A stretch of 64,000 nt of DNA from Candidatus Krumholzibacteriia bacterium (GTDB lineage: Bacteria; Krumholzibacteriota; Krumholzibacteriia; LZORAL124-64-63). The stretch's first letter is position 1, and each line of letters begins with the position of its first letter. Below the pieces are notes generated by a model. That model saw only the letters and a list, made by a program, of their open reading frames with translations. It did not search any database and was not told where the DNA came from. A program made the position numbers and the translations under genes. Positions 5,672 through 49,869 of this stretch are shown piece after piece. Location: positions 72,839 to 136,838 of the forward strand of contig CALOFL010000013.1 of the NCBI GenBank assembly GCA_942492615.1, in the 5' to 3' direction.

Positions 5672-6985
5672 TCAACGTTCCACCACCGTGGACATCAAGT
5701 CCGCCTCGGCCACTTTCACGTCGCCGACGTAGGCGGTTCCCTTCATCTTGCAGATCGGACCCCGCAGCTTGCTCATCTCCAGTTCGAACCGGAGTTGATC
5801 ACCGGGGGTGACGGGTTGGCGGAATCGCGCGTTGTCGATGCCGCTGAAATAGACGAGCTTGCCTTCCGGGTCGTCGAAGCTGCTCAGCAGCAGGACGCCG
5901 CCGGTCTGGGCCATCGCCTCGGTGATCAGCACCGCCGGCATGATGGGGTGCCCGGGAAAATGCCCCTGAAAAAACGGTTCATTGATGGTCACGTTCTTGA
6001 TGCCCACCACGCGCTTGCCTGGTTCGAGTTCGATGATGCGATCGACCAGCAGGAACGGGTAGCGGTGGGGCATGATTTCCATGATGGAGCCGATATCCCA
6101 GAAATCCGCGTTCCGGGGCGGATAGATGCGCGGCATCTTCCGCTCGGGCTTGGCCAGCAGCCGGGTGAACTCCACGTTGCCGGCGTGCCCGGACAGCTTG
6201 GCCTGGACGTGGCCCTTGATCGGCATCCCCAGCAGGGTCAGGTCGCCGAGCAGGTCGAGGATCTTGTGGCGCACGCACTCGTCGTGAAAGCGGAGCTCCT
6301 GACCGCCGGCCAGCTTCCCGTCCTCGAAGACCAGGGCGTTCTCGAAGGTGCCCCCCTTGACCAGTCCCATTTCCTGAAGCCGCGCCACATCCTTCATCAT
6401 CGCGAACGTGCGGGCCGGGGCGATTTCCTTGCGGTAGCTAGTTGGGTGGACCTGGTAGGTCATGCTCTGGGTGCCGATGGCCTGGTCGTCGTACTCGATG
6501 ACGAACGAGAGCAGGAAATGATCGGCCGGAACGGCAAGGAGTTCGACATCGCCGCTGCGCCAGCTGACCGGACGGTTGATCTTGTAGTAGAGCGAGGGCA
6601 GGCCCTGATCCTGGATCCCGGCTTCGTCGATCATATCGACGTAGCTGAGGGCGCTGGCGCAGGCCGGTACGGGCGGTTCGCCACCCTGGAGCTTGATGTA
6701 GCAGTTCGTCACACCCATGCCCGCCAGGCCGGACAGGACGTGTTCCACGGTGTGGATCGTCACGCCGTCCTTGGCCAGGGTCGTGGCCCGGATGAGATCG
6801 CGTTCGGTGGTCACGTTTTCGACCAAGGCCGGGATACTGACCTCGCCGTCCGGCCCCGGAACGAGGAAGACCAGCCCGGTGTTGGGCGGCGCCGGGGCGA
6901 AGGTCATCCGTGCAAAAGCACCCGAGTGCAGCCCGACTCCTTCGGTGCTGACTTCCCGTCGCAGGGTTTTCTGGAACCAAAGCAC
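5672..6985 (-). CDS. lpxC/fabZ: Bifunctional LpxC/FabZ (deacetylase plus 3-hydroxyacyl-ACP dehydratase)
   Basis: N-terminal [31 protein letters not shown]; C-terminal [32 protein letters not shown]. Confidence 0.96.
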
Positions 6986-6991
6986 CTGAAA

Positions 6992-8059
6992 CTACTCCTC
7001 TTCCCCGGTCCGGGCGGCCGCGGATCCGGGGGAACTGCCTTCCAAGCGGTCGACCCGCTGCAGCAGGTCCGGCAACTTGCGCAGGAAGGCCTGCAGCCGG
7101 AACGACTCGCCGCGTTCGAGGGCCGGGGTCCCGAACAGCGTCTTGCCGTCCGGAACGTCGCCGATGATCCCTGACTGGCCGCCGATACGTACATCGGCGC
7201 CTATCCTGATATGATCGCCAACCCCCACCTGGCCGCCCGCGATGACGCGGTCACCCAGCTGGGAGCTCCCGGCGATACCCGTCTGGGCGCTGAGGGAGCA
7301 ATGCTTTCCGAGGATCACATTGTGCCCTATCTGAACCTGATTGTCGATCTTCGTTCCGGCGCCGATGACCGTCCTGCCGGTGGTCGCCCGGTCGATGCAG
7401 ACATTCGCCCCCACCTCCACCTGGTCCTGGATCTCCACGATCCCCACCTGGGGCACCTTGCGGATGCCTTCCGGACCGGGAAGATACCCGAAACCGTCGG
7501 AACCGATCACGGCGCCCGAATGAACGATCACCCGGTCGCCGATCAAGGTGCCTTCACGCACGGTCACCCCGCTGTGGATCAGGCAGTCCTCGCCCACGAC
7601 GCTGTCGCAACCGAGGATGACGTGCGCCCCGAGACGGGTGCCAGCACCGATGACGACCCCCGCACCGAGCACGCTGTAAGGTCCGATGGCCACACCCTGT
7701 CCCAGCACGGCGTCGGCAGGGACCACGGCCGTGGCGTGCACCAGCGGCGGAAACAGCCGGTCCGGATCGGTCTGCAGCAACTCCAGCAGGGTGGCGAACG
7801 CCCCGTACGGATCGTCGACCCTCACCGCCGGCAGCTCGACCTCGTGCTCGGGCCCCACCAGCACCGCCGCGGCGCCGCAACCGTCCAGGGCATCGGTCCT
7901 GGAGTGGCGGTTCACGAACGTCAGGTCGCCGGGACCGGCGTCGTCGATGCTGGCCAACCCGGTGATGACCGGATCTTCGCCGCCGACCAGTTTCCCGCCG
8001 ACGCGGGAGGCCACTTCGCTGAGATTGAGCGCCTGCATGTCCATTTCCGTGTTATGCAA
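6992..8059 (-). CDS. lpxD: UDP-3-O-(3-hydroxyacyl)glucosamine N-acyltransferase
   Basis: LpxD N-domain, hexapeptide repeats, DGFGY, PQVGIV, IDRAT, KIDNQVQIGHN. Confidence 0.96.
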   Translation of the reverse strand: MHNTEMDMQALNLSEVASRVGGKLVGGEDPVITGLASIDDAGPGDLTFVNRHSRTDALDGCGAAAVLVGPEHEVELPAVRVDDPYGAFATLLELLQTDPDRLFPPLVHATAVVPADAVLGQGVAIGPYSVLGAGVVIGAGTRLGAHVILGCDSVVGEDCLIHSGVTVREGTLIGDRVIVHSGAVIGSDGFGYLPGPEGIRKVPQVGIVEIQDQVEVGANVCIDRATTGRTVIGAGTKIDNQVQIGHNVILGKHCSLSAQTGIAGSSQLGDRVIAGGQVGVGDHIRIGADVRIGGQSGIIGDVPDGKTLFGTPALERGESFRLQAFLRKLPDLLQRVDRLEGSSPGSAAARTGEEE

Positions 8060-11392: not shown

Positions 11393-13852
11393 TCAGGTCT
11401 TGAGCTCCTTGCTCGGAACCGCCTTGAAGGTCAGTTTGCCCCCCTTGACGCCGATCACCAGGTGGCTCTTGCTGGTCACCTCGCCGCGCAGTAGCTTCTC
11501 GCTGAGCGGATCCTCCACGTGCTTCTGGATCGCCCGGCGCAGGGGCCGCGCTCCCAGGTTCGGATCGAACCCTACGTCGCACAGGAATTCCTTGCACGGC
11601 TTGGTGAAGTCGAAGTCGATCTCCAGGTTTTTCAGACGTCCACTCACGTCAGCGAGCAGGATGTCGACGATCTTGGTGATGTCCTCGCGGTCCAGCGAGT
11701 TGAAGGTGATGATCTCGTCGATCCGATTGAGGAACTCCGGATTGAACGTCTTGCGCAGGTCGATGTCGATGTTGGCCTGGACCCGCTGGGCGGCGTGGTC
11801 CACCTGATCGGACCCGAATCCGACCCCGTGGCCGCCGTGCGTCTTGCGGCTGCCGACGTTGCTGGTCATGATCAGCACCGCGTTTCGGAAATCGACCGTC
11901 CGCCCGAAACTGTCGGTCAGCTGACCGTCGTCCAGGACCTGGAGCAGGATGTTGTAGACGTCTGGATGGGCCTTTTCGATCTCGTCCAGCAGGATGACGC
12001 AGTAGGGCTTGCGCCGGACCTTCTCGGTCAGCATGCCGCCCTCGTCATAGCCGACGTAACCCGGAGGCGCCCCGACCAGGCGGCTGACCGAGTGTTTCTC
12101 CATGTACTCGGACATGTCCACCCGGACCAGCGACGTCTGGTCGCCGAAGAGGAACTCCGTCAGGCGACGGGCCACTTCGGTCTTGCCGACACCGCTGGGG
12201 CCGAGGAAGATGAAGGAACCGATGGGCCGCCGTGGATCCCGCAGACCCGCCCGGTTGCGCCGGATGGACTTGGACACGGCCTCGAGGGCCTGATCCTGGC
12301 CGATGACCCACTTGCCCAGTTCCTCCTCCATGCGCAGCAACTTGTCCGTCTCTTCCTCTTCGACCTCGGAAACCGGAATGCCGGTGATTTCGGCGATGAC
12401 CTCGCACACCAGCTTGGTGTCCACCAGGCTCTGGGGTTCGGCGTTCTCGGAATTCCAGTTCTTCTTCAGGTCCTGGAGCTCCTTCTTGAGCGCCTTCTCC
12501 TCGTCCCGGAAGGCCGCGGCCTTCTCGAATTCCTGTGCCTGGATCGAGGATTCCTTCTCGGTGATGATCTCCTCGATCTTCTTTTCCAGTTCGCGCAGGT
12601 CCGGCGGCACGACCGTCATGCTCAGTCGGGCGCGGCTGCCGGCCTCGTCGATGACGTCGATGGCCTTGTCGGGCAGCGCGCGGCCGGAGATGTAGCGGTT
12701 GGACAGCCACACGGTCGACCGGATGGCGTCATCGTCGAACTTGACGCGGTGGTGCGCTTCGTACTTGTCCCGCAGGCCAAAGAGAATCTCGATGGTCTCC
12801 TCTTCGCTGGGCGGATTGACGGTCACGGGCTGGAATCGCCGTTCCAGGGCGCCGTCCTTCTCGATGAACTTGCGGTACTCGTCCATGGTCGTCGCGCCGA
12901 CGCACTGGATTTCCCCGCGGCTGAGAGCGGGTTTGAGCATGTTGGACGCGTCGATGGCGCCCTCGGCGCCGCCGGCGCCGACGATGGTGTGGAGCTCGTC
13001 GATGAACAGGATGACGTCGGGATTCTCCCGGATCTCCGCCATGATCTGCTTGAGGCGCTCCTCGAACTGCCCGCGGTACTTCGTGCCGGCGACGACGCTG
13101 GCCAGGTCCAGGGTGACGATTTCCTTGTCGCGCAGCAGGGCCGGCACGTTGCCCTCGACGATCTTGCTGGCGAAACCCTCGACGATCGCGGTCTTGCCGA
13201 CGCCCGGTTCGCCGATCAGGACGGGGTTGTTCTTCTTGCGCCGGCTGAGGATCTGGATGCAGCGGTCGATTTCGCTGGTGCGCCCGATGGTCGGGTCCAG
13301 CTTGCCCTCGCGGGCCATGTCGGTCATGTTGCGGCCGAACTGCTCGAGAACCGAGTTTTCCTTCTTCTTGGGCTGTTTGCGTTTGCGGCCGGGCGCGGCC
13401 TTGCCGAACGGATCGCCGCCGCCGAGGGCCTTCATCACCTCGCGCTTGACCGTTTCGTGATCGACATTCATGTCGGTCAGGACACGGGCCGCCACGCCTT
13501 CGCCTTCGCGGATCAGCGCCAGCAGCAGGTGCTCGGTGCCCACGTAGTTGTGGTTGTGCAGGCGGGCTTCGTCGATCGAGAGCTCCAGCACCTTCTTGGC
13601 GCGGGGCGTGAACGGGATCTCCCCGATGCTGACCGGCCCCATGGGCGCGTTGACCGAATCCTCGACGGCCTTCTGGATCCGCTCGAAGTCGATGTTCATG
13701 CGCCGGAGCACGTTGGCCGCGACGCCTTCGCCCTCGCGAATGACGCCGAGCAGGAGGTGTTCGGTCCCGATGTAGTCGTGCTGCAGCCTGCCGGCTTCGT
13801 CACGGGCGAGAAACAGTACCTTGCGAACTCGTTGCGTAAAGCGGTCGTTCAT
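11393..13852 (-). CDS. clpC: ATP-dependent Clp protease ATPase subunit ClpC
   Basis: Start at MNDRFTQR (13852); two Clp-N repeats (GTEHLL), [11 protein letters not shown]-type middle coiled coil, [11 protein letters not shown] ClpP-docking loop. Confidence 0.96.
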
Positions 13853-14091
13853 TCCGTTGCGCCTCCAATGCGTAACCCGGGTCGCGATTCCTGTCGATAC
13901 ACCGATCCGGCCCCCGAGGGCCGCAACCGGGCCAACCACCCTTGCGAAGAATATACTGGTGCGGCCCATCCAACGCTACCATGACCTCGGACGACCGGAG
14001 TGGAGAGGGCCGCACTCGGGTCGCCGCCCCTGCTTAGATTTTCGTCGTAATGGAGTAAAACTTTAACCTGTAAACATATCGAGAGTTCGTT

Positions 14092-15156
14092 TCAGGGACC
14101 CGTGGTCGCAAACACATCCCGCAGAAAGGCCGCGCGCGCGGCGGATTTTTCGCGGCTCGACAGAATCCGGCCCGCCGCCAATTCGAGATGTGCCGTCTGC
14201 TGGCGCACCAGGGCCTCGTTCAGCAGTCCGGCCGCCAACGGCGGCAGGATACCCAGACCGCTCCCCAGACGCACGTTCGACAGACGATCAAAGGCCTCCT
14301 GGGCCGTCAGCAGGCGCGCTCGCCGCAGGACGCCCAGACTGCGTTCGGCCAGATCCTCCACGCCGAGAGGGTCGCGCTGGTAGATCTGATCCCGGGCCAT
14401 CCGCTCGTAGGTGATGATCTTGGCCACGTGGACGCCGAAATCTTCGCCGATCTCCTGCTCGTCACGCCCCAGCGTCACCAGGTTGGAGATGCGAAATATC
14501 GCGCCCTTGACCGTATCGCCGTGGCCGAACAGGCCCCGCACCGAGAACTGGAGCTGCCGCAGCGCGTTGAGGACCTTCTCGATTTCGCCGGCGAGCACCA
14601 GACCCGGCAGATGAAGCAGGGAGGTGAAATGCAGGCCCGTGCCGACATCCGTCGGACACGAAGTCAGGTAGCCCAGATCGTCAACATAGGCCGGCTCGAC
14701 CTCCGCCTCGAGCAAACGGTCCAATTCCAGGACTTTGGCCAGGCAGGCGTCCGGGGCGAAACCGGAGGCGTAGGCGCGTAGCCGAATGTGATCCTGGAGA
14801 TTGACGGCCGCCGCCAGGGTGGAGTCGGGCGCCAGCATCAGGGCGCGGTGACGAATCCCGGTCGGCGTCAGTCGCCCGGTCAACTGCATCTCCTGGAGGG
14901 CCCGCAGCTGGGTGTCCTCCAGCTTGTCCAGCTCCAACAGCCAGCCGTCCGCCAGGGGCGCGAAACGCGACAGCCGGCGGCACAGATCCCCGCAGACGGT
15001 GCCGAGTTCGGCATCCGAAGCATGGTCCGGAAACGGGAACGTGTTCAGGTTGCGCACCAGTTCGGCGCGGGTCGCCAGGACGATATCCGCATGAGGCCCC
15101 TGCTCGTTGAACCAGGCGGGCAGCTGCCGTTGGAAATCCGGGAAGAAGCGGTTCAC
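14092..15156 (-). CDS. mcsB: McsB-family protein arginine kinase homolog with degenerate active site (possible pseudokinase)
   Basis: GPHADIVL, GYLTSCPTDVGTG, HLPGLV, ISNLVTLG and RAAFLRD motifs; lies between mcsA and clpC. The NEEDH motif reads NLQDH. Confidence 0.9.
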   Translation of the reverse strand: MNRFFPDFQRQLPAWFNEQGPHADIVLATRAELVRNLNTFPFPDHASDAELGTVCGDLCRRLSRFAPLADGWLLELDKLEDTQLRALQEMQLTGRLTPTGIRHRALMLAPDSTLAAAVNLQDHIRLRAYASGFAPDACLAKVLELDRLLEAEVEPAYVDDLGYLTSCPTDVGTGLHFTSLLHLPGLVLAGEIEKVLNALRQLQFSVRGLFGHGDTVKGAIFRISNLVTLGRDEQEIGEDFGVHVAKIITYERMARDQIYQRDPLGVEDLAERSLGVLRRARLLTAQEAFDRLSNVRLGSGLGILPPLAAGLLNEALVRQQTAHLELAAGRILSSREKSAARAAFLRDVFATTGP

Positions 15157-15689
15157 GCGTCCTCCTCCCGGGACTCCAGCTGGCGGATACGATCTCGCAG
15201 GCGCGCGGCCTCCTCGAAATCCTCCGCCGCGATGGCCTTTTCGAGCGCCACGCGGATGCGGGCGATTTCGCCCGGCCCGTTGGCCGTACCGGTATCCGGC
15301 CGGGGCGCCTTGCCGAGATGGGAAACGTGACGGTGGAAGCTGGCCAGCATGGGCATCAGCCGGGCACGAAACGACTGGTAGCAGCGGGGACAGCCGAGCC
15401 GGTTGGTGGCCCCGAACTGTTTGAGACTGTAGCCGCAGGAAGTGCAGGTGCGCGCCGCGTCCTCGGCCGCCGGTTCGGCGGGTCCGAAGACCTGGCCCAG
15501 GAAGGATGCCAGAGATTCGGAGTCGACCGGCTCGCTCGTGCCGTCACCTTTGGCCGCGTCGGCGGCACCGTCGGTGCGTTCGTCCTTGCCGGCACAGATG
15601 GGACACAGCCACAGGCTCTTGCGGTCGCCATCGACCAGCTCGATGAGATGGATGGAGGCGTCGCGCTTCCCGCAGCGCTGGCAGGTCAT
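15153..15689 (-). CDS. mcsA: McsA (four CxxC motifs plus UVR domain)
   Basis: CQRC, CPIC, CTSC and CPRC, HLGKAP, and a C-terminal UVR motif EDFEEAARLRDRI. Confidence 0.92.
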   Translation of the reverse strand: MTCQRCGKRDASIHLIELVDGDRKSLWLCPICAGKDERTDGAADAAKGDGTSEPVDSESLASFLGQVFGPAEPAAEDAARTCTSCGYSLKQFGATNRLGCPRCYQSFRARLMPMLASFHRHVSHLGKAPRPDTGTANGPGEIARIRVALEKAIAAEDFEEAARLRDRIRQLESREEDA

Positions 15690-16378
15690 CCGGACACCTC
15701 CCGGTCCGGGACCAGGCGGTGGTCCCGCAGCCGCAGCGTCCGGTCCGCCCGTTGCGCCAGGCGCGGGTCGTGGGTGACGATGACCAGGCTCGTGCCCTCG
15801 CGCCGGCGCAGATCGAAGAGCATGTCCCCCAGCCTCTGGCCGATTTCGTGATCGAGGTTGCCGAAGGGTTCGTCGGCCAGAACGATGCGCGGCCGGTTCA
15901 TGAAGGCCCGGGCCACGGCGACGCGCTGCTGCTCGCCGCCGGATAGTTCGCCGGGCAGATGATCGGCCCGGTCGGTCAGCCCCGTCACCGCGAGGAACTC
16001 GGCGGCGCGTGCGCGATCGGACTCCGTCACTCCACCGCGGCTGCGGGCGGGGATCAGGAGGTTCTCCCGGGCCGTGAAATCCGGCAGCAGGAAGTGGAAC
16101 TGGAAGACGAAGCCGACGCCAGCCGAACGCCAGCGGGTCATGGCGCGATGGCTCTGCTGTTCCAGCACGCGCCCTTCGAACAGCACCTCCCCTGCGGTGG
16201 GATTATCCAGCCCGCCGAGGATGTTCAACAGGGTGCTCTTGCCCGAACCGCTCGGCCCCATGATGGCGACCGCCTCGCCCGCGGCCAGGTTGAAGTCGCA
16301 CGACTGCAGGACATCCACCGTGCTGCCGTGACGGGGGAAAGTCTTGGTCAGGTTGCGGGCTTCCAGGAGACTGGTCAT
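15686..16378 (-). CDS. lolD: Lipoprotein-releasing ABC transporter ATP-binding protein
   Basis: [51 protein letters not shown]. Confidence 0.9.
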
Positions 16379-20384: not shown

Positions 20385-20981
20385 CTACGCCCCGGTCAGG
20401 TGGCGCTTCCAGAGGTCGTCGGCGGCGCGCGACAGTTCACGTTCGCCGCGGTCGTTGATGATGTGCACGTCGGCGGCCGCCCAGAGGCCGGCCATCGCGT
20501 CCTGCGATCTGACCCTGGCCAGGGCCTGAGCCGGGGTCAGCCCCTTGCCCTCGACGAGGCGGTCCAGCCGGATTGCGGCGGGCGCATCGACGCAGATCAC
20601 CAGGTCCATGAGCGGCGGGTCCGGCAACAGAAAATACACGGCCGCCTCGAGCACGGCAAGCGCGTGCTTTCCCCCGTCGGCCAGCGCCTGCAGCCGGGCC
20701 TCAAAATGCGCGCAAAGGGGTCCGTGAGTCAAGCTGTTCAAACGGACCATCGCTTCCGGGTCGGCGAACACCAGGGCACCGAGACGGCCCCGGTCGATCC
20801 GGTCGTCCACCAGCACGGCCTCACCGAAGTCCTGTACCAGTGCGGTCTTGATCGCGGGGCGGTCCAGAACTTCATGACCGAGGCGATCCCCGTCGAGAAC
20901 CGCGGCGCCCTTGGCGGCCAACAGCCGCGTGAGGGAAGACTTCCCCGCACCGATGGGGCCGGTGACGGTCCACCTCTTCAT
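20385..20981 (-). CDS. coaE: Dephospho-CoA kinase
   Basis: TGPIGAGKS, IDRGRLGALVFADP, LNSLTHG; overlaps the polA stop. Confidence 0.92.
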   Translation of the reverse strand: MKRWTVTGPIGAGKSSLTRLLAAKGAAVLDGDRLGHEVLDRPAIKTALVQDFGEAVLVDDRIDRGRLGALVFADPEAMVRLNSLTHGPLCAHFEARLQALADGGKHALAVLEAAVYFLLPDPPLMDLVICVDAPAAIRLDRLVEGKGLTPAQALARVRSQDAMAGLWAAADVHIINDRGERELSRAADDLWKRHLTGA

Positions 20982-23832
20982 CCGTGGGCCTCGGCCCAGT
21001 TGGCGCCCGCGTGCATGTCCACCACCAGGGGGACTGTCAGTTCCAGGGCTCCCTCCATGCCCGACCGCACGAGCTCGCGCACGGCCTCCAGTTCGCCGGC
21101 GGGCACCTCGAGCACCAGCTCGTCATGGACCTGCAGCAGCAGCAGGGCGCCGGAGTCGGCGTCGTCCAGATCCTTCTGGATCCTCAGCATGGCCAGCTTG
21201 ATGAGGTCCGCCGCCGTGCCCTGAATGGGCGTGTTGACCGCCACCCGCTCCTGGAATGATCGTACCCGATTGTTGGTCGAGTCGATGTCCGGCAACAGCC
21301 GTCTCCTGCCGAGCAGGGTCTTGACCCAGCCGTCGCGGTGCGCTTGCTCGCGGGTCTCCTCGATGAAGACCTTGACCCCGGGGTAGGTCTCGAAATACGT
21401 CTCGATGAACTGCGACGCCTCCTGGACCTTGACGCCGATCTGGCGGGCCAGCGCCCGCGATCCCATGCCGTAGATCACGCCGAAATTGATCGCCTTGGCC
21501 CGGCTGCGCATCTCGGCGGTGACGTCCTCCTCGGGTACTCCGGCGATCAGGGCGGCAGTGCGGCGGTGAACGTCCGCCCCGTCGTTGAAGGCCGCCTGCA
21601 AGCCGGGATCGTCGGCAAGGTGGGCCAGCAACCGGAGTTCGACCTGTGAGTAGTCAGCGGAAAGAAAGACGTTGTCCGCCGAACGGGTGACGAACGCCCG
21701 CCGGATCTGCCGTCCCAGTTCGGTCCGGATGGGAATGTTCTGCAGGTTCGGGTCCGAGCTCGATAGGCGGCCGGTCGCCGCCACCGCCTGGTTGTAGGAA
21801 GTGTGGATCAGACCGGTTGCCGGGTTGGCCAGGCCGGGCAGGGTTTCGACGTACGTGTTCTGCAGCTTGGCGACCTGCCGGTACTCCAGGATCAACGCCG
21901 GCAGTTCGTGTTCGTCGGCCAGGGCCGTCAGCACCGAGACGTCGGTGCTCCAGCCGGTGGCGGTCTTCTTGACGGGTTTCAACCCGAGCTTCTCGAACAG
22001 GATGACCGACAGCTGCTTGGGGCTCTGGATGTTGAAGTCCTCACCGGCGCTGGCGATGATCCGGACCTTGAGATCGGTCATCTCGGCTTCGAACCGCTCG
22101 CGGAGCTCCTCGAGGAAATCCAGGTCGATCTTGATCCCGTTGCGTTCCATCCGCAGCAGCACCGCCGCCACGGGCATCTCCAGGTCGTGGAACAGTCCGG
22201 CCATTCCGCTGTCGGCCAGCAGGGGCTCGATGACTTCGTACAGCTGCAGAGTGTAGTCGGCATCCTCGGCCGCATACAGACCCAGACGATCCGGATCCAC
22301 CGACAGGATGTCCTTCAGGCGGTCCCCCGGTTCGAACAGTTCACCAAACGGCATCATGCGGTGGTCGAGATACCCCAGGACCAGATCGTCGAGGCCGTGG
22401 CTCATCCGCCCGGGATCCAGGACGTAGGATGCGAGCATGGTGTCGAAGCGGGGGCCGTCCAGCGGCAGGTCGTGACGCCCGAGCACCCATTCGTCGAATT
22501 TCAGGTTCTGCCCCACCTTGAGGCAGCCGTTCTGCAGCACGGGCCGCAGCAGGGCCTGGACGCTGGACAGTCGCGACTCCTCCTTCCCGACCGGAAACAG
22601 CGTGCCGCCGTCGCCCGCGTTGCCGTCGGCCTCGCGCCACCGGACCGGAATGTAGGCCGGTGCCAGGCTTCTGTCCGTGGCGGTCCCAGCCGCCCAGGCA
22701 CACGCCCACGAGGCGACAGGTGTCCTGGCGCAGTCCGTCGGTCTCGGTGTCGACCGCCAGGGGAGCCAGCGGATCGAGCGGACGCCAGCCAGGACTCGAG
22801 TTTCTCGTCGTCATCCAGGATGCGGTAGCCGCGCGCGGCCCGGCGCTGCCGCGACCAGTTCGTGGCCACCGGCTCCGGCGCCTTCTGCCTGGCGATCCCG
22901 GGTGCGGCTGCTTTCGCCGGCTTCGCTTGCGGGTCACTGTCGGCCTCCGCAGGACCGTTGCTGGCCAACTTGTCCGTGAGGCCCAGCACCCGTTTCAGGC
23001 CAAGTTCCTCGAGCTGGCCGCGCACTTCCTCACCGGTGGGCAGGATGGTATCCATGGCGTCCCAGTCGAGATCGAGGTCCAGGTCATCATCGATGACGAA
23101 CAGGTTCCGCGACAGGAACACCTGGTCCCGGTTCTCTCCCAGCACCCGCTTCAGCCGCGGTGTCAGTTTGCTGGCCTCGAGGCCGTCGTAGAGCTTCTCA
23201 AGACTGCCGAATTCGCCGATCAACTTCTGGGCGGTCTTGTCCCCCACGCCGGGAGCGCCGGGGATGTTGTCGGCCTTGTCGCCGGCCAGGGCAAAGACGT
23301 CGATCAGATCAGCGGGATCCAGGCCGTAGGTCTTGCGTACGTCCTGGGCGGTCAGGGGCGTCACTTCGTCGCCGCGTCGGCCCGGCTTGAGCATCCCGGT
23401 GCGTTCGTCCAGCAGTTGCATGAAGTCCTTGTCGCCGGTGTAGAACCATACCTGGTCGGTGATGTCGACCGATCGCCGCGCGACCGTCGCCATCACGTCG
23501 TCCGCCTCGACCCCTTGTTCCTGGAGTACGGCGATGCCCCACGCAGCGAGTAGCCGGTGCAGGCGCGGCAGCTGCTCGGCCAGCTCTGCGGGCATGGGTT
23601 TGCGCTGGGCCTTGTACGCCGGATACATTTCGTGCCGGAAGGTGGGCCCCTTGACGTCGAAGACCACGGCGATCTTCTCGGGAGCGTATTTCTCGATGAG
23701 GCGGAGGATGGAGTTGAAGAACCCGAAGGCGACCGAGGTCGTCTCCCCCGAGGGGGCCGTCAGGGGCCGGTTGGCGAAGGCGAAATGGGCCCGGTAGATC
23801 AGGGCCGAGCCGTCGACGAGGATCAGCGACAC
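20978..23832 (-). CDS. polA: DNA polymerase I (two apparent frameshifts near 22770 and 22670)
   Basis: 5'-3' exonuclease (LVDGSALIYRAHFA, EADD, GDKADNIPG), DTET in an intermediate frame, then polymerase motifs TGRLSSSDPNLQNIP, DYSQVELR, AKAINFGVIYG, QVHDE. Confidence 0.93.
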
Positions 23833-31254: not shown

Positions 31255-31393
31255 GCAGAACTTCCTGTCAAAAAGGCGCACGAAACCGCCTCCATCTGTC
31301 AACGGACCCGGCCACTACTTCCGGGAACCGGGCGATGAAGGCTAACAGATCACTAGGTCATATTTTGGGGTTCCGGCGGCCGGGTTGGCAAGA

Positions 31394-31423
31394 GAAAATG
31401 GGCCCGCGGGGAGGGCCATTTTC
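31394..31423 (-). terminator. Probable terminator after the pilT/U gene
   Basis: Inverted repeat GAAAATGG(G)CCC/GGGCCATTTTC, followed by CTCTT on the minus strand. It sits just after a TGA at 31447 in an alternative frame. Confidence 0.55.
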
Positions 31424-31446
31424 GTGATCAGGGGTGCGAGCGGGCG

Positions 31447-32604
31447 TCAGATCCGGGAGATCTCGGCTTTCTCGGGCTCCGGTGCGGCTCTTGCGGCGTC
31501 GGTCCTCGAAACGGTCCCAGGTGGTGTCCGAGCTGGCCTGGATGCCCTTGATCCGCAGCATGAATTCGTGGGGATTGCTGCTGGCCTTGGTGGCGGCCTC
31601 CAGGGTGATCTTCTTCTCCTTGTAGAGCTGCATCAGCGACTGGTCGAAGGTCTGCATCTGGTACTGGATGAATCCCTCCTGGATCGCCTGCCGGATCATG
31701 ACCGTCTTTTCCGGTTCCCGGATGTATTCCTTGATCGTGCTCGTGGCGATCATGATCTCGCAGGCCGGATAGCGGGTCAGGCCGTCGGCGTCGGCCACCA
31801 GACGCTGGGAAATGACCGCGTTCAGGGTCGACGCCAGCAGGTAGCGGATTTCCTGGTGCTGGTGCGGCGGGAAGAACGAGATGATGCGGCTGACGGTCTG
31901 CGTGGCATCGATGGTGTGCATCGTGCTCAGCACGAGATGGCCGGTGTCGGCGGCCGTCAGGGCGATCTTCATGGACTCGGCGTCCCGGATCTCGCCGATG
32001 AGGATCACGTCCGGATCCTGCCTGAGAACATGCCTCAAGGCATCAGAATAAGTACTGGTGTCGCAACCGATTTCCCTCTGGCTGATAATGCTCTTGTTGT
32101 CGCGATGCAGGAATTCGATGGGGTCCTCGATCGTGATCACGTGGCGGGAACACTCCCGGTTGATGATGTCCACGATGGAAGCCAGGGTCGTGGACTTGCC
32201 GCTGCCCACGGTGCCGGTCACCAGGATCAGGCCGCGGGACTTCAGGTCCCAGCTGTTTGACGACTTCCGGCAGGCCCAGGTCGTCCAGGTGCTTGATCTC
32301 GACCGGCACGTGCCGGAAGACCATGGCCACCGTGCCCCGCTGCACGTAGAAGTTCGCGCGGAAACGCGCCACGCCGGGCACGCCGAACGCGAAGTCGATC
32401 TCGCGGGTGGTCTCGAAGATCTCCCGCTGGGCCGGGCGACAGGATCTGCTGGGTCACGGCGGCCATGTCCTGCACCGTCGGCGGCTCATAGTCGGCAAAA
32501 ACCAGCGACCCGTTGATGCGAAACACCGGCGGCGTGGCCACCTTGATATGGAGGTCGCTCGCACCGCGGGCGATCATTTCCTTGAGGATCTTCTTGATTT
32601 CCAT
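31447..32604 (-). CDS. PilT/PilU-family type IV pilus retraction ATPase (frameshifts near 32435, 32255 and probably the 3' end)
   Basis: GASDLHIKV..PPVFRING, RFRANFYVQRG, GTVGSGKSTT, ITIEDPIE, LRQDPDVILIGEIRD, STMHT, QTFDQSL. The ORF track extends to 31358. Confidence 0.9.
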
Positions 32605-32727
32605 GTAAAGGAATCTCCTGTCACGGGTTCCAGAGTCCGCCGGCGGCCGCAAGCGCCGGTCCGGCCTTACCAACTGTCTTTCGGCAGAAAACCGGCACGC
32701 TTGACCCGGTAAACGGGCCAATTGGCC

Positions 32728-32767
32728 AAAATAAGAGCCCGGCGGGTGTGCTGATCCCGCCGGGCTC
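32728..32767 (-). terminator. Intrinsic terminator after accB
   Basis: 12-bp stem GAGCCCGGCGGG/CCCGCCGGGCTC followed by TTATTT on the minus strand. Confidence 0.8.
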
Positions 32768-32792
32768 CTGAAATGTCGCTTTGGGGCCTAAA

Positions 32793-33261
32793 TCAGTCCG
32801 GATCGACCAGGAACAGCACCCCTTCGGCTTCGACCGGCGTACCGTCCTCGACGAGGATCTCCTTGATCGTGCCGCCGAATTCGGCCTCGATCTCGTTCAT
32901 GACCTTCATGGCCTCGACGATGCAGAGAGTCTGACCGACCGCAACACGATCCCCCACCTGGACAAATGCCGGACTGGCGGGCGACGGGGCCGTGTAGAAG
33001 GTCCCCACGATGGGCGAACGGACGTCCGCCACTTGGCCCGGGCCGGATCGCGCGACCTCGGCCGCCGTCCGGCGGTCGCCGGGACCGCGGCGCGGCGGCC
33101 GACCGGGCGGGCGCCGGTGCCGGGGCGACCGACGCGGCGGCCACGGAAATGGGCGCCGATTTCTGGATCCTGATGGTCGTGTCCAGATGGACGATCTCCA
33201 GTTCCTCGATCCCACTGTCCTCGACCAGTTTGACCAGTTCGCGAACCTTGCCGATATCCAT
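32793..33261 (-). CDS. accB: Biotin carboxyl carrier protein (frameshift in the Ala/Pro linker near 33100)
   Basis: [23 protein letters not shown], then [10 protein letters not shown] and [11 protein letters not shown] (biotinylated Lys). Confidence 0.93.
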
Positions 33262-33298
33262 TTCAGCTCCTTCGGTGCGTTGTCGCTTGGCATCCATA

Positions 33299-33856
33299 TC
33301 AAACCCTGCCCAGATATTTCCCGGTACGGGAGTCGATTTTAAGGACTTCACCCTCATCTATGAACAGCGGAACCTGAACGACAAGCCCCGTCTCCATGGT
33401 TGCCGGCTTGGAACCGCCCTGGGCGGTGTCGCCCTTGACGCCGGGATCGGACTGCTTGACGGCCAATTCCACCGTCAGCGGCGCTTCGACGGTCAGCGGC
33501 TTCTCCTCCATCAGCAGCACGCTGCACATGTCGCTCTCCTTGATGTACAGGGGAACGTCCCCCATGGTCTCCTTGTGCAGCTGGATCTGCTCGTAGGTTT
33601 CGGTATTCATGAAAACATAAAATTCCCCGTCGGGATACAAATATTGAAACTCCCGACGTTCCAGACGGACCTCCTCCACCTTCTCGCCGGCGCGGAAGGT
33701 CTCCTCGACGACCTTGCCGTTCTCCACGTTCTTCAGCTTGGTGCGCACGAAGGCCGGGCCCTTGCCGGGCTTGACGTGCTGGAATTCGGCGATGGACCAC
33801 AGGCCGTTCTTGTGGCGCATGGTGAAGCCCGTGCGAAAATTACTTGTATCGGCCAA
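33299..33856 (-). CDS. efp: Elongation factor P
   Basis: Probable TTG start (ADTSNFR); [41 protein letters not shown]. Confidence 0.96.
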
Positions 33857-33949
33857 GGCCTGCCTCGCTTTCACGATCCGCATTCGATGATTGATCTGCC
33901 GTAAACCGGCTCATTGATAACACGCGCCCCTGCCTTGGCAAGGCAATGA

Positions 33950-34410
33950 TCAGGACCGTCCAGGAACTGATTCGCCGCAGCAGCGCGGCCATGCCCTCCA
34001 GGGCCAGGCGGTAGCCCTCGACCCCGAATCCGCGGATACCGGCGACGACCACGTCGGCCAGGAGGTTCTGCCGGCGGAACGCCTCGCGCGCGTCCGGATT
34101 GCTCAAATGCAGTTCCACCACGGGGATATCGATCGCCGCGACGGCGTCCCGGACGGCCACCGAGGTGTGGGTGTAGGCCGCAGCGTTGAGGATCAGGCCG
34201 TGGGCCTCGTCGCCGGCCCGATGGATCATCCGCACCAGTTCCCCCTCGCTGTCGGTCTGGAGCCAGGTCGAGATCCAGACCCAGTTCCTCGGCCCAGCGA
34301 CGACAAAGCGTCTCCAGCTCCGCCCACGAGGTGCGGCCGTAGACCTCCGGATTCCTGGTGCCCAGGCGTCCGAGGTTGGGCCCACCGATCATGACGACCC
34401 GGTACTTCAC
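33950..34410 (-). CDS. aroQ: Type II 3-dehydroquinate dehydratase (frameshift near 34265; end approximate)
   Basis: GPNLGRLGTRNPEVYG, then DSEGELV, LNAAAYTHTSVAVRDA, VELHLSNPDAREAFR. Confidence 0.92.
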
Positions 34411-35216: not shown

Positions 35217-36878
35217 TCAGTCCAGTTGCTTGAGCGTTTCGCCCGACGGCCACCATGTCATTCCACAGCCCCGCGGTCAGAGTCAGGGGCAGGCGGCCCT
35301 CGACGGTTGCGAGCAGTTTACGCCCGTTCTCGAGGGCTTCGCTGTCGTCGGCGTCCGCCAGGCCGCCGGCGCAACGCCGTGCGCCCTCGACCACCTGGCT
35401 GACCGCTTTGCGGGCCATCACCCGGCTCATGTCGGCGAAATGGACCGCCTGGGCGTCCCCCTCGGCCGCCAGCCGGCAGGCCTTACGGGACATGGCGGCG
35501 GCGACCTCGCAGACCGTCATCATGTCGGCAAAGGTGAACATCACGATCTGGTTTCGTGTCAGCCGCGCGGCATGCATGTGGAGGATGACGTCGTTGAGGC
35601 CCGCGAGGGCCGCGGCCACCATCGCCGCGCCGACATCCTGCCGCTCGGCGTGCCCAGCGCCGAGATCCTCGGCCATCCCGCGGTAGAAACCACCCTTGCT
35701 GCGCACCGTCTCCTTCCAGCGGTACATGGCGATGATGCTCTGCTGGATCTCGCTGGTCCCCTCGTAGATGGAGGTGATGCGGACATCGCGCCGCATCTTC
35801 TCGACCAGATATTCGCGGGCGTAGCCGTAGCCCCCAAGCGCCTGGATCGCCGCGTCAGCCGCCCGGTTGCCGGCTTCGGTCCCCCAGTACTTGGCGATCG
35901 AGCCTTCGGTCCCCATGTCCTTCGCGCCCTCGTCGATCTGCATCGCCGTCTGCTCCATGTGGGCACGGCCGGCCTCCAGGTCGACCCAGTTGTCGACGAT
36001 CAACTTGAGCAGGTAGCCCTCTTTTTCGACCAGCGGGGCGCCGAACTGCTCCCGGGTCTTGGCATAGTCCAGGGCACGCTGCAGCGGCGCCTGTCCGCCG
36101 CCGATACCGAATGCCCCGACCATCAACCGGGTGTAACCGAACACCGCGTTGGCCTGCTTGAGGCCCTGCCCTTCAACCATGCCGATCAGATGATCGCGAG
36201 GTACGTCCACGTCCTCGAGCAGGACGCCGGTCGTGTTGGAGGCGCGGATGCCGTGCTTGTCCTCGTGCTTGCCGACGGCCAGGCCGCCGGTGCCGCGTTC
36301 GACGACGAAGAAACTGGGCCCGTCGGGGGTCTTGGCCAGGATGGTATAGAGATCCGCCACGCCGCCGTTGGTGATGAACTGCTTGGCGCCGTTGAGGCGG
36401 TAGCCGGTCACGTTGCCCTGGGCGTCGAGCACGCGGTCGGCGGTCGTCTTGAGGGCCGCCACGTTGCTGCCGGCCTCCGGTTCGGTCACGCCGTAGGCGA
36501 CGATCATGCCTTCGGTCGCGATCTTGGCGAGCCACTTCTTCTTCTGATCCGGCGTGCCGCCGACGAGAATGGGATCGGTGCCCAGACAGATGGCCAGAAA
36601 CGCCGTGGCCACGCCGAGGTCCCAGACGGCCATCTCCTCGCTGACGCGGCAGATGTCCCGTGCGCCGCCGCCCAGGCCACCGTGTTCCTCGGGCAGGAAG
36701 ATCAGGTGCAGGCCCACATCCGGCGACAGCAGCTTCTGGATCAGGTCGGTCGGGAAACTCGTCCTTCTCGTCCAGCTCCATGATCTTCGTCGTCGGGCAA
36801 TTCGCGGCCGACGACCTGGCGCAGGGTCTGGATGACCATATCGGTCATCTCGGTGGACAGTCCGGCGGGGACATTCAT
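35217..36878 (-). CDS. Acyl-CoA dehydrogenase with C-terminal extension (frameshifts near both ends)
   Basis: YGVTEPEAGSN, LNGAKQFITNG, KHGIRASNT, REQFG, LGGYGYAREY, IYEGTSEIQ. Start at ATG 36878 and stop at 35217 are inferred across shifts. Confidence 0.88.
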
Positions 36879-37843
36879 GGAGCCTTCCTCTCTTTCGGAC
36901 GGCACCCCGGGCGGCGGACCGCGCTCAGGGAACGTTGATCCGTCCGGACCCGACCAGGACGCACTGGCCGCCGACCTCGATGGAGCTGGCCTGTCCGCCG
37001 GAAGATTTCGGCGTCGGCGATGATGCGGCTGGGACGGCCCATCTCCAGCCCCTGTTCACTGATGATTCTCACCTTGGCGCCGAACTTGACCAGACGGTGT
37101 TTCACGAGGTAGGCCACCAGGGCGCCGGTCGCCGCCCCGCTGGCGGCGTCCTCGGGAATGCCGAAATAGGGTGCGAACATGCGGCAATGCACCGTCGATT
37201 CGGCGTCGACCGTCTCGCAGGTGAAGACGAAAAGGTCCCCGAAACCCAGATCGCCGGCGATGGCGTCGGCTTCGCGGTGCCGCAGATTGATCTTGCCCAT
37301 CGCTCTCGAGCGAAGCGACAGCGGCACGATGTGGATCGGCAGCCCGGTCGAGATGACCTCGCAGGGCAGGCCGGTGATGGCGATGTCGTCCTCCGGCAGA
37401 CCCAGGGTCCGGGCCACCTTGCCCCGGTGGAAGTACTGCCCCATGAACACCGGCGCATCCTGCTCGAGGCTGTAGATCAGGTCGCCCGTCCTCGTGGCGG
37501 GTCACCACCTGGTAGTGTCCGGCTTCCAGTTCCCAGGTGAAGGGGCTCGGCGCCGTCGCCACCGCGCGGCGCCCCAGGTGGTCCAGGGCGAAGGTGGCCC
37601 CGAGCACCGGAATGACCGCCGAACGGAATCTCGGCCGCCGGCGTGAAGACCCGCAGGCCGCCGCGGTCGTCTCCCCGGGCGACGGCCGGCACGATGAAGG
37701 CGGTCTCGCCGGCGCCCAGTTCCATGGCCAGCTCCTGCATCTGCCTCGGCGGAACGTCGGCCCCGTCGGGAAACAGGTACAGGCGACTGCCGCCGAAGGG
37801 GCGGTCGGTGAAAACGTCGATCAGCAGGAAATTCAAGTTCCAT
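36875..37843 (-). CDS. PhzF/DAP-epimerase-fold family protein (about three apparent frameshifts)
   Basis: DVFTDRPFGG, ETAF, RVFTPAAEIPFGGH, RMFAPYFGIPEDAASG, EQGLEMGRPS. Confidence 0.85.
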
Positions 37844-49069: not shown

Positions 49070-49141
49070 GGTGCCCAGCTCCTTCCGATTCTTGGCGTCA
49101 CACGCCGTTAGCGGTAATTCCCTCGCGGGACGATGTGGCCA

Positions 49142-49576
49142 TCATTGGTCGATGGTGATTTGGCGACGGTCGTTGATCCCGCCGGGGCCCTTCACGAACG
49201 TCACGACCAGGAAGCCGCTGCGGTAGCGGGCTCGGGCGCTGGCCGGATCAACATCCACCGTGATCGGGATGCTGCGGCTGAAAGGTCCCACGTCGATTTC
49301 CATCTTGTGGAAATGCTTCTTGCCCGGCACGCTGGAATCCCTGCGGATGCCCCGGACCACCAGGCTGTTCTCGTCGGCCAGAACCTCGATCTGGGTCGGA
49401 TCCATGCCGGCCAGGTCCACCTGGACGATAAAGGAGTCTTCGGTTTCGTAGGCATCGGTCGCCGGTCGCCAGCAGAGATCCCTTTCCCCCGGGATCACCC
49501 CGCCTTTCTGGGCGTAGGAGGTCACCAGGATTTCGAAGATCTCTTCCAGCTCACCTGGTTTGTCCCGTTTGCTCAT
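49142..49576 (-). CDS. Hsp20/alpha-crystallin small heat-shock protein
   Basis: Start MSKRDK (49576); RPATDAYET, VDLAGM, GPFSRSI, ARYRSGFL. Confidence 0.88.
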   Translation of the reverse strand: MSKRDKPGELEEIFEILVTSYAQKGGVIPGERDLCWRPATDAYETEDSFIVQVDLAGMDPTQIEVLADENSLVVRGIRRDSSVPGKKHFHKMEIDVGPFSRSIPITVDVDPASARARYRSGFLVVTFVKGPGGINDRRQITIDQ

Positions 49577-49629
49577 CGGCGACCATTCTCCCTGGGTGTC
49601 GACCGAACGGTAATACGCGGCCGAACAAT

Positions 49630-49658
49630 ATGCTACCTTGCCCACCCCGGACCGTCAA
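49630..49658 (-). promoter_or_regulatory. sigma70-type promoter for hsp20-lon
   Basis: TTGACG (49658-49653), 17 bp, TAGCAT (49635-49630). Confidence 0.65.
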
Positions 49659-49752
49659 CCAAACCCATGACCGGTCGCCGATACTCGCAGCCGCGCACGC
49701 GCACCGGTGCCGGGACTTCATTGCCGGCAGAGCTTCCGATCGCACCGGCGGG

Positions 49753-49783
49753 AAAAAAAACCACCGCCCCGACACGGGCGGTG
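49753..49783 (-). terminator. Intrinsic terminator after lexA
   Basis: 8-bp stem CACCGCCC/GGGCGGTG followed by G and T8 on the minus strand. Confidence 0.88.
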
Positions 49784-49869
49784 ATTGCGCAGAACCGTCG
49801 TCAAATTGCCGCAGCGAAACCGCCGGGCCAAACGCCAAATCGGCGGTTAAGGGCCGCCAGCGCTTCCGG

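What the first reader, a model, noticed from the sequence alone, without database searches (positions are those of the whole stretch)
14092..15156. McsB looks like a pseudokinase while McsA and ClpC remain intact
Seen in sequence: an uninterrupted 354-aa ORF with normal codons in which hallmark phosphagen-kinase residues are replaced. Compared from memory with B. subtilis McsB: SSRIRLARN becomes ATRAELVRN (ATP-binding Arg to Glu); EKH becomes EMQ; NEEDH becomes NLQDH (14802-14788; both Glu lost); CPTNVGTGLRAS becomes CPTDVGTGLHFT (Arg to His); RGIYGEGSE becomes RGLFGHGDT (second catalytic Glu lost). The C-terminal pArg pocket ERDIRRA becomes EKSAARA. Established: these Glu and Arg residues coordinate the guanidinium and ATP in arginine/creatine kinases and McsB, and McsB is also a ClpC adaptor activated by McsA. 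Inference: a catalytically dead McsB kept under selection, so McsA-McsB*-ClpC may deliver substrates or regulate ClpC without arginine phosphorylation. I know of no description of such a system.
Basis: partly seen in the sequence, partly recalled or inferred. Interest (0 to 1): 0.78.

Follow-up and report, generated by a model that had tools for sequence, protein, structure and literature searches.

The report
McsB arginine kinase turned pseudokinase
An uncultured Krumholzibacteriota bacterium keeps a well-folded copy of the protein-tagging enzyme McsB whose catalytic residues are dismantled, still under purifying selection beside its partners McsA and ClpC, so the trio probably works without arginine phosphorylation.

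Summary
ORF 14092-15156 (-) is a full-length McsB homologue (PF00217 plus the McsB C-terminal domain). The AF2 model has pLDDT 92 and TM 0.9 to solved McsB.

- **Residues replaced (B. subtilis numbering):** R31E, K90M/H91Q, E120L, E121Q, N170D, R176H, E212H and R337K/D338S.
- **Baseline:** all these positions except 90/91 are invariant or nearly so in 71 McsB representatives from other phyla.
- **Not an artefact or decay:** the same protein occurs in seven other assemblies. An 85%-identical lineage shares the changes, with dN/dS 0.125 at dS 0.68.
- **Context:** lolD-mcsA-mcsB-clpC synteny holds in all ~50 Krumholzibacteriota loci. McsA and ClpC are intact.
- **Within the phylum:** basal lineages keep the full catalytic set. 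About 42 representatives carry N170D plus loss of R176. In them, E121, R176 and E212 are the only canonically invariant positions that have changed or become variable.
- **Elsewhere:** several other lineages in the phylum, and a candidate Actinomycetota group, degenerated independently.

I found no published description. The most likely function is a non-catalytic McsA-bound partner or regulator of ClpC. That function is inferred, not shown. I class it as a new variant of a known family.

The parts
14092..15156 (-). mcsB* : 354-aa McsB-family protein with a dismantled phosphotransfer site (pseudokinase candidate)
   Evidence: ORF. PF00217 at 1e-38. NCBIfam McsB equivalogs score 258 bits, below the 385-500 cut-offs. 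PDB McsB hits at 1e-60. AF2 pLDDT 92.2. Foldseek TM 0.89-0.93 to 6tv6/6fh1. dN/dS 0.125.
15049..15075 (-). ATRAELVRN: nucleotide-phosphate Arg motif (Bs SSRIRLARN). R30 and R35 are kept; Bs R31 (= arginine kinase R126) is replaced by E32.
   Evidence: R31 is 71/71 in the baseline. The change is shared only with P0002/L001.
14788..14802 (-). NLQDH in place of NEEDH: E120L and E121Q (E121 = arginine kinase E225, a guanidinium-positioning Glu). D122, H123 and R125 are kept.
   Evidence: In the degenerate set E121 is K21/R8/Q6/E3/M2/V/N.
14629..14658 (-). CPTDVGTGLH in place of CPTNVGTGLR: C167 is kept. N170D (AK N274) and R176H (AK R280).
   Evidence: D170 is fixed and position 176 is H28/D9/N5 in the degenerate set.
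14518..14538 (-). RGLFGHG in place of RGIYGEG: R207 is kept; E212H (AK E314, the second guanidinium-positioning Glu).
   Evidence: Role of E314/R309: PMC11492440.
14131..14151 (-). EKSAARA in place of ERDIRRA: the pArg receptor site (Bs R337/D338) is absent. This is a phylum-wide trait.
   Evidence: Receptor site defined in PMC8370763.
15153..15689 (-). mcsA: 178-aa activator homologue with four CxxC motifs, the Z2-L3 McsB-binding segment and a UVR coiled coil. Its ATG overlaps the lolD stop (ATGA) and its stop overlaps the mcsB* start (GTGA).
   Evidence: dN/dS 0.13. McsA-McsB interface from PMC11046695.
11393..13852 (-). clpC: 819-aa class I AAA+ unfoldase with two Clp_N repeats, AAA1, a UVR/M-domain, AAA2 and D2-small. 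A VGF ClpP-loop tripeptide is present. All NTD pArg-pocket residues are conserved.
   Evidence: It is 89-92% identical to the ClpC of main-group genomes whose McsB is about 60% identical.
13853..14091 (-). 239-nt mcsB*-clpC spacer with an AT-rich island (about 14030-14085) and a GGAGG 9 nt upstream of the clpC ATG. clpC is therefore not translationally coupled to mcsB*.
   Evidence: No sigma-70 consensus, CtsR box or CIRCE was found.
15686..16378 (-). lolD-like ABC ATPase immediately upstream, translationally coupled to mcsA. The order prfB-lysS-lolE-lolD-mcsA-mcsB-clpC-bamA-ompH-lpxD is conserved in the phylum.

Best explanation
mcsB* encodes a folded, dimerisation-competent McsB-family protein that has lost the machinery for transferring phosphate from ATP to arginine. 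It is maintained as a non-catalytic partner of McsA and ClpC.

**Shown:**
- The fold and the C-terminal domain are intact.
- Two of the nucleotide-phosphate-binding Arg (R31, R176) are replaced (R31E, R176H; N170D sits beside the transferred phosphoryl).
- Both guanidinium-positioning Glu are replaced (E121Q, E212H).
- The gene is under purifying selection, as strong as in catalytically canonical relatives.
- It keeps its place, translationally coupled to mcsA and next to clpC.
- Its McsA-contact loops are conserved, as is McsA's McsB-binding Z2-L3 segment.

**Inferred:**
- McsA still binds McsB*.
- The complex acts on ClpC by direct binding, as an adaptor, activator or inhibitor in the manner of MecA. 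It does not work by writing pArg degrons.
- R30, R35, D122, H123, R125, H182 and R207 stay conserved. The pocket may therefore still bind a nucleotide or another anionic ligand as a conformational signal.
For: - **Family and fold:**
- **Substitutions against an invariant baseline:** (71/71 canonical in other phyla).
- **Not an artefact:** identical protein in L056-L062 from JGI, ENA and Logan samples.
- **Selection:** window vs L001 gives dS 0.68, dN 0.085, omega 0.125, and mcsA gives 0.13. Omega is 0.08-0.20 within degenerate lineages and 0.10-0.34 within canonical ones.
- **Site-specific relaxation:** E121, R176 and E212 are the only positions that are invariant in canonical sequences yet changed or variable in the 42-member degenerate set. 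Another 54 positions, including the McsA-contact loops, stay invariant in both (interface from PMC11046695).
- **McsA:** conserved across both kinds of lineage.
- **Synteny:** holds in all ~50 phylum loci, with one copy per genome.
- **ClpC:** intact.
- **Residue roles:** PMC11075012 and PMC11492440.
Against: - No activity was measured. From memory, single E225/E314 mutants of arginine kinase keep a small residual activity, and Q121, H176 and H212 are polar, so weak or altered catalysis cannot be excluded.
- C167 and four phosphate-binding Arg are retained.
- In B. subtilis the adaptor role of McsB depends on its kinase activity (PMC5506225). A kinase-independent ClpC role therefore has no precedent.
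- Only 64 kb of the genome was visible, so a second unrelated arginine kinase elsewhere cannot be excluded.
- The pattern scan of GTDB genomes would miss a Firmicutes-type paralogue.
- Conservation of the ClpC NTD pArg pockets says nothing either way, because those residues also hold the resting state (PMC12583610).
Confidence: 0.6

Rival explanations
1. It is still a protein arginine kinase. The active site is rewired, with H176 and Q222R substituting for R176 and with Q121/H212 positioning the guanidinium. Activity is reduced or differently regulated, but not lost.
For: C167, R30, R35, D122, H123, R125, H182 and R207 are kept. N170D and Q222R are fixed and not random, and Q222R recurs in the Actinomycetota degenerate group. 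From memory, single Glu mutants of arginine kinase keep residual activity; structures 1p50/1p52 exist.
Against: Positions 121, 176 and 212 are not fixed to new residues. They drift: K/R/Q/E/M/V/N at 121, H/D/N at 176, and E/D/G/Q/H/A at 212. That pattern indicates lost constraint, not a new catalytic solution. R31E and N170D place negative charge where the ATP phosphates and the transferred phosphoryl sit. All 71 presumed-active homologues elsewhere keep every residue.
Confidence: 0.1
2. It has a new enzymatic activity. The remodelled pocket (D170, H176, H212, Q121, E32 and the retained Arg cluster) catalyses a different reaction, such as another phospho-acceptor, nucleotide hydrolysis or dephosphorylation.
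For: The Arg cluster and the adenine-side His182 stay under selection. New fixed residues D170 and R222 line the pocket. The pocket gains His and Asp, which are typical catalytic or metal-binding residues.
Against: The new residues other than D170 and R222 are not conserved across the clade, or even between the window and its 85% relative (H212 vs Q212). No motif of a known hydrolase or phosphatase was detected. No precedent exists in the phosphagen-kinase superfamily as far as the literature searches reached.
Confidence: 0.12
3. It is a decaying gene or an assembly artefact. The window shows frameshifted genes elsewhere, so the substitutions could be errors or recent neutral decay.
For: polA, a T2SSE-type ATPase and a C25 peptidase look split in the window, which suggests indel errors in this assembly.
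Against: The ORF is intact with normal GC3. The protein is identical in seven independent assemblies, with 0-1 synonymous differences. The substitutions are shared with an 85% relative across dS 0.68 at omega 0.125. The AF2 model is confident.
Confidence: 0.02

Closest known systems
McsB protein-arginine kinase of Bacillus subtilis / Geobacillus stearothermophilus (PDB 6tv6, 6fh1-3)
   Same: Same two-domain architecture: a phosphagen-kinase-like domain plus a C-terminal dimerisation domain. Identity is 33-35% and TM 0.89-0.93. It is encoded between mcsA and clpC.
   Different: R31E, K90M, H91Q, E120L, E121Q, N170D, R176H and E212H. It has no R337/D338 pArg receptor and no R194, so no pArg-linked octamer switch. 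It scores below all NCBIfam McsB cut-offs. No ctsR gene or CtsR box lies upstream; the operon continues from lolE-lolD instead. The host is a diderm.
McsA-McsB holoenzyme (S. aureus 8gqd; B. subtilis 8wtb/8wtc; PMC11046695)
   Same: McsA's second zinc finger and L3 loop (LGCPxCY..FR...H..H.GK) are conserved, as are the McsB loops they contact (F42, D146, E150, G162-P168, L229-E233).
   Different: In the known complex, McsA binding rearranges the catalytic loop to activate the kinase. Here there is no competent catalytic site to activate, so the interaction must serve assembly or substrate/ClpC binding (inference).
Catalytically canonical McsB orthologues of basal Krumholzibacteriota (e.g. P0084, P0091, P0108; loci L017, L018, L034)
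   Same: Same phylum, same gene order, 46-50% identity, and the same lack of D338/R340.
   Different: They keep R31, E120, E121, C167, N170, R176, R207 and E212. They are the natural positive controls.
MecA-type ClpC adaptors
   Same: The proposed mode of action is the same: binding to the ClpC NTD or M-domain releases the resting state and delivers substrates without any covalent mark (PMC12583610).
   Different: There is no sequence or fold relationship. Binding of McsB* to ClpC has not been tested.
Eukaryotic-like and bacterial Ser/Thr pseudokinases (reviewed in PMC12599244)
   Same: The concept is the same: the kinase fold is retained under selection, catalytic residues are lost, and the nucleotide pocket is often kept as a switch.
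   Different: This is a different superfamily (phosphagen/guanidino kinase fold). That review cites McsB only in its reference list, as the arginine-kinase papers.

Membership tests
McsB protein-arginine kinase (EC 2.7.14.1; NCBIfam NF002194 / NF053707) | ATP:guanido phosphotransferase catalytic-domain fold (PF00217) | tested here: met
   PF00217 at 1.1e-38, 133 bits. Foldseek TM 0.89-0.93 to 6tv6/6fh1.
McsB protein-arginine kinase (EC 2.7.14.1; NCBIfam NF002194 / NF053707) | C-terminal McsB dimerisation domain (PF27454 McsB_C) | tested here: met
   Precomputed PF27454. The full-length alignment to solved McsB covers residues 9-347. pLDDT is above 90 over 233-350.
McsB protein-arginine kinase (EC 2.7.14.1; NCBIfam NF002194 / NF053707) | Score at or above the curated equivalog cut-off | tested here: not met
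   Best scores are 258.3 bits against a cut-off of 385 (NF002194) and 256.6 against 500 (NF053707). Canonical Krumholzibacteriota L017 also falls short, at 334.
McsB protein-arginine kinase (EC 2.7.14.1; NCBIfam NF002194 / NF053707) | Complete catalytic set R29, R31, E121, R125, C167, N170, R176, R207, E212 (71/71 in other phyla) | tested here: not met
   R31E, E121Q, N170D, R176H and E212H, plus E120L.
McsB protein-arginine kinase (EC 2.7.14.1; NCBIfam NF002194 / NF053707) | pArg receptor site R337/D338 in the dimerisation domain | tested here: not met
   K337/S338 in the window. The baseline is R337 71/71 and D338 69/71. Site defined in PMC8370763.
McsB protein-arginine kinase (EC 2.7.14.1; NCBIfam NF002194 / NF053707) | Encoded with mcsA and clpC | tested here: met
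   mcsA-mcsB-clpC in the window and in all related loci.
McsB protein-arginine kinase (EC 2.7.14.1; NCBIfam NF002194 / NF053707) | Phosphorylates protein arginine | not testable with these tools
   Needs an in vitro assay.
Pseudokinase (functional class) | Kinase fold retained while residues essential for phosphotransfer are lost | tested here: met
Pseudokinase (functional class) | Maintained by purifying selection (not a pseudogene) | tested here: met
   omega 0.125 at dS 0.68. omega is 0.08-0.20 across the degenerate lineages.
Pseudokinase (functional class) | No catalytic activity | not testable with these tools
   Inferred from residues only.
ClpC adaptor / regulator | Physical binding to ClpC and modulation of its ATPase or proteolysis | not testable with these tools
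   Only conserved adjacency and an intact ClpC NTD support it.

The most novel reading that the evidence does not exclude
McsA-McsB is at root a phosphorylation-independent ClpC partner, and the kinase activity is dispensable. At least two phyla, Krumholzibacteriota and a candidate Actinomycetota class, have repeatedly discarded catalysis while keeping the McsA-McsB-ClpC module. The surviving Arg cluster and His182 pocket, with the convergent Q222R change, have become a ligand-sensing 'reader' or switch (for a nucleotide or other phospho-ligand) that gates ClpC. This would be a new class of bacterial pseudokinase in the phosphagen-kinase fold.
Probability: 0.25. Interest if true: 0.8.

Novelty: new variant of a known kind. 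Interest (0 to 1): 0.66.

Why it matters
McsB is the only known writer of the phospho-arginine degradation tag. In the model organisms its adaptor function has never been separated from its kinase activity (PMC5506225).

A natural series is now available within one phylum and one conserved gene context. It runs from fully canonical, through partly degenerate, to the window's heavily degenerate protein. Biochemists can use it to ask what McsA-McsB does for ClpC when no pArg is made.

The series also shows that database names such as 'protein arginine kinase' are probably wrong for a whole clade. It extends the pseudokinase concept to the guanidino-kinase fold in bacteria.

If the module works without phosphorylation, models of ClpC activation and of the origin of the pArg system would need revising.

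Tried and rejected
- **Sequencing error or recent decay:** rejected. The protein is identical in seven assemblies and omega is 0.125.
- **Paralogue hypothesis (a dead copy beside a live one):** no second PF00217 or McsB hit in the 64-kb window. Among ~50 GTDB genomes only one gave two hits, on contigs of 6x and 51x coverage, which probably reflects bin contamination. The scan patterns were clade-specific, though, so a Firmicutes-type copy would be missed.
- **YwlE, CtsR and ClpP:** none in the window. With 64 kb this says little.
- **CtsR operator and CIRCE searches:** nothing above chance. No sigma-70 consensus promoter and no Rfam family.
- **ClpC NTD pArg-pocket conservation as a test of pArg use:** uninformative. 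The residues are identical everywhere and also serve the resting state.
- **Single origin of the N170D/R176-loss state:** not resolved. Once the diagnostic columns are removed, the three robust sub-lineages (each 200/200) group together in only 61/200 NJ bootstraps. The window lineage is sister to a degenerate group in 139/200.
- **Papers not held:** Suskiewicz 2019 and Trentini 2016. Residue roles were taken from other papers and from alignment coordinates to arginine kinase structures.

Full report
**What is there.**
- The region holds four tightly packed genes on the minus strand: a lolD-like ABC ATPase (15686-16378), mcsA (15153-15689), the McsB homologue (14092-15156) and clpC (11393-13852).
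- The lolD/mcsA and mcsA/mcsB junctions overlap by 4 nt (ATGA and GTGA), which suggests translational coupling.
- clpC follows after a 239-nt spacer that carries an AT-rich island and its own GGAGG.
- bamA, ompH and the lpx genes lie downstream. lolE, lysS and prfB lie upstream.
- Homologue names and contig titles place the organism in Candidatus Krumholzibacteriota, a diderm phylum.

**Checking the observation.**
- The 354-aa ORF is uninterrupted and has the GC3 of its neighbours (0.82).
- It hits PF00217 (1e-38) and carries the McsB C-terminal domain.
- It aligns end to end with solved McsB structures at about 35% identity (E 1e-60).
- It falls below every NCBIfam McsB equivalog cut-off: 258 bits against 385 or more.
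One more, N170D, was not listed.
- Alignment coordinates to arginine kinase structures (query 110-252 = 1m15 214-354; query 20-250 = 9fhn 114-352) give these equivalences:

| Window residue | Arginine kinase residue |
|---|---|
| E32 | R126 |
| Q121 | E225 |
| C167 | C271 |
| D170 | N274 |
| H176 | R280 |
| R207 | R309 |
| H212 | E314 |

- Published work treats E225, E314 and C271 as the essential guanidinium ligands. It has N274, R229 and R309 contacting the transferred phosphoryl or the ATP phosphates (PMC11075012; PMC11492440).

**Is it more than chance?**
- A second database search happened to return a broad sample of the family. It gave 71 representatives from Bacillota, Verrucomicrobiota, Omnitrophota and others.
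- In all 71, R29, R31, R34, E120, E121, D122, H123, R125, C167, N170, R176, R207, E212, Q222 and R337 are invariant. D338 is 69/71.
- Against that background the window protein has lost R31, E120, E121, N170, R176, E212, Q222, R337 and D338.

**Is it real and under selection?**
- Exactly the same protein is encoded on seven other contigs from JGI, ENA and Logan samples. They differ from the window by 0-1 synonymous changes.
- The nearest distinct lineage (L001/P0002, 85% identity) shares R32E, E120L, E121Q, N170D and R176H, and has Q at 212.
- Nei-Gojobori estimates for that pair are dS 0.68, dN 0.085 and omega 0.125 for mcsB*, and 0.13 for mcsA.
- Pairs within other degenerate lineages give omega 0.08-0.20. 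Catalytically canonical lineages of the phylum give 0.10-0.34. There is no global relaxation.
- AlphaFold2 with a 117-sequence alignment gives pLDDT 92.2 and pTM 0.89.
- Foldseek matches B. subtilis and G. stearothermophilus McsB over the full length, with TM 0.89-0.93 and rmsd about 2 Å.

**The pattern across relatives.**
- Among 120 homologues, basal Krumholzibacteriota lineages keep the complete catalytic set.
- A set of 42 representatives, including the window, has N170D together with loss of R176.
- I compared these 42 with 28 fully canonical sequences. Only three positions are invariant in the canonical set yet changed or variable in the degenerate set:
  - E121 becomes K21/R8/Q6/E3/M2/V/N.
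  - R176 becomes H28/D9/N5.
  - E212 becomes E16/D14/G6/Q4/H/A.
- Four new states are fixed or nearly so: N170D, Q222R, K90M and C167S. The window lineage itself keeps C167.
- Fifty-four positions stay invariant in both sets. They include residues in the three loops that contact McsA in the crystal structure (PMC11046695).
- This is what loss of one function in an otherwise constrained protein looks like.
- The window lineage is the most extreme, adding R31E, E120L and E212H/Q.
- At least five further lineages in the phylum carry other combinations of three to six losses.
- When the diagnostic columns are excluded, three degenerate sub-lineages are each recovered in 200/200 NJ bootstraps, but they unite in only 61/200. 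Whether N170D/R176 loss arose once or two to three times is unresolved.

**Partners.**
- mcsA-mcsB-clpC adjacency holds in every one of about 50 Krumholzibacteriota loci. There is one copy per genome, apart from one probable bin contaminant. Degenerate and canonical forms are therefore orthologues at the same locus, not paralogues.
- McsA keeps its four CxxC motifs, its C-terminal UVR coil and its Z2-L3 segment. In B. subtilis that segment binds and activates the McsB kinase domain. All three features are conserved in degenerate and canonical lineages alike.
- ClpC is 89-92% identical between genomes whose McsB is about 60% identical.
- ClpC keeps all NTD pArg-pocket residues. Those residues also stabilise the ClpC resting state (PMC12583610), so they do not show that pArg is used.

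**Mechanism.**
- What is shown is a folded McsB with a dismantled phosphotransfer site, under purifying selection, in a conserved module.
- My best inference (confidence about 0.6) is that McsA still binds McsB*. On this view the complex acts on ClpC by direct binding as an adaptor, activator or brake, without writing pArg.
- R30, R35, D122, H123, R125, H182 and R207 remain conserved. Nucleotide or other anion binding may therefore persist as a conformational signal, as in many pseudokinases.
- Evidence against: in B. subtilis the adaptor function requires kinase activity (PMC5506225); residual or altered catalysis is not excluded; and the rest of the genome was not visible.

**Comparison and novelty.**
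- The protein belongs to the McsB family by fold, domain architecture and gene context.
- It fails the features that define the enzyme: the catalytic set, the pArg receptor and the curated score.
- Full-text searches for McsB with 'pseudokinase', with structure terms and with Gram-negative contexts found no description of catalytically degenerate McsB. Chlamydial McsAB is discussed only as a putative kinase.
- I class this as a new variant of a known kind.
- A second independent radiation exists in candidate Actinomycetota ('Humimicrobium'/'Hydromicrobium'-type MAGs), also flanked by mcsA and clpC.
  - Its changes are R29S/C/Y, R31S/Y, E121D, D122E, R125K, C167N, N170L/V, R176K, R207S and R337I.
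  - Q222R appears convergently in part of that group.

Noticed in passing
L051-L055 (mcsB-like at about 6001-7040); proteins P0122-P0170: There is a second, independent radiation of degenerate McsB homologues in candidate Actinomycetota MAGs, also flanked by mcsA and clpC. It has NEDEH for NEEDH, NPSLIGTGLK for CPTNVGTGLR, and R29, R31 and R207 lost, with R337I. Some relatives in the same group (P0145, P0146, P0148, P0152, P0153) are fully canonical.
   Followed up: partly
window position 222 of McsB* (codon 14491-14493) and the same column in P0122-P0144: Q222 is invariant in 71/71 canonical McsB. It is R in about 98% of the Krumholzibacteriota degenerate set and in 9 of 23 Actinomycetota degenerate sequences. 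This convergent change next to the nucleotide pocket may fill or re-use the site.
   Followed up: partly
window 22667-22840 (polA): Relative to the near-identical contig L059 (99.8% over 21 kb), the window has two single-base insertions (22779, 22667) and a 3-nt indel (22838-22840) inside polA. polA is therefore split into two ORFs here (20978-22540 and 22501-23832) but is a single 949-aa gene in L059.
   Followed up: yes
window 31358-33357; 58256-59587; 36875-37450; 33840-34385: Several other genes look truncated or split across frames: a T2SSE/PilB-like ATPase, peptidase C25, PhzF-like and dehydroquinase II. This suggests indel errors in this assembly, or real pseudogenes. mcsA, mcsB* and clpC are not affected.
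   Followed up: partly
window 4092-25161 and loci L002, L003, L056, L059: mcsA-mcsB-clpC sits inside a conserved envelope-biogenesis supercluster: bamD/yfiO-like, nadD-like, polA, coaE, prfB, lysS, lolE, lolD, mcsA, mcsB, clpC, bamA, ompH, lpxD, fabZ-lpxC, lpxA, lpxB. mcsA is translationally coupled to lolD. A link between this ClpC module and outer-membrane or lipoprotein quality control is conceivable but untested.
   Followed up: no
window 14030-14085: An AT-rich island (TTTACAGGTTAAAGTTTTACTCCATTACGACGAAAATCTAAG) lies just after the mcsB* stop in a 65% GC genome, followed by a leader of about 170 nt before clpC. It is probably a clpC promoter of non-sigma-70-consensus type. No CtsR box, CIRCE or Rfam element was found.
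   Followed up: partly
window 46691-50481: A stress/proteostasis cluster lies about 30 kb away: Lon protease (46691-49069), an Hsp20 small heat-shock protein (49142-49645) and LexA (49870-50481).
   Followed up: no
L027 (dolphin-oral MAG DOLZORAL124_64_63), mcsB at 547-1569: A homologue only 47% identical to the window also carries NNQDH, SPVDTGTGLH and KGLFGRG, so it too has the N170D + R176H pair. These two changes tend to travel together.
   Followed up: no
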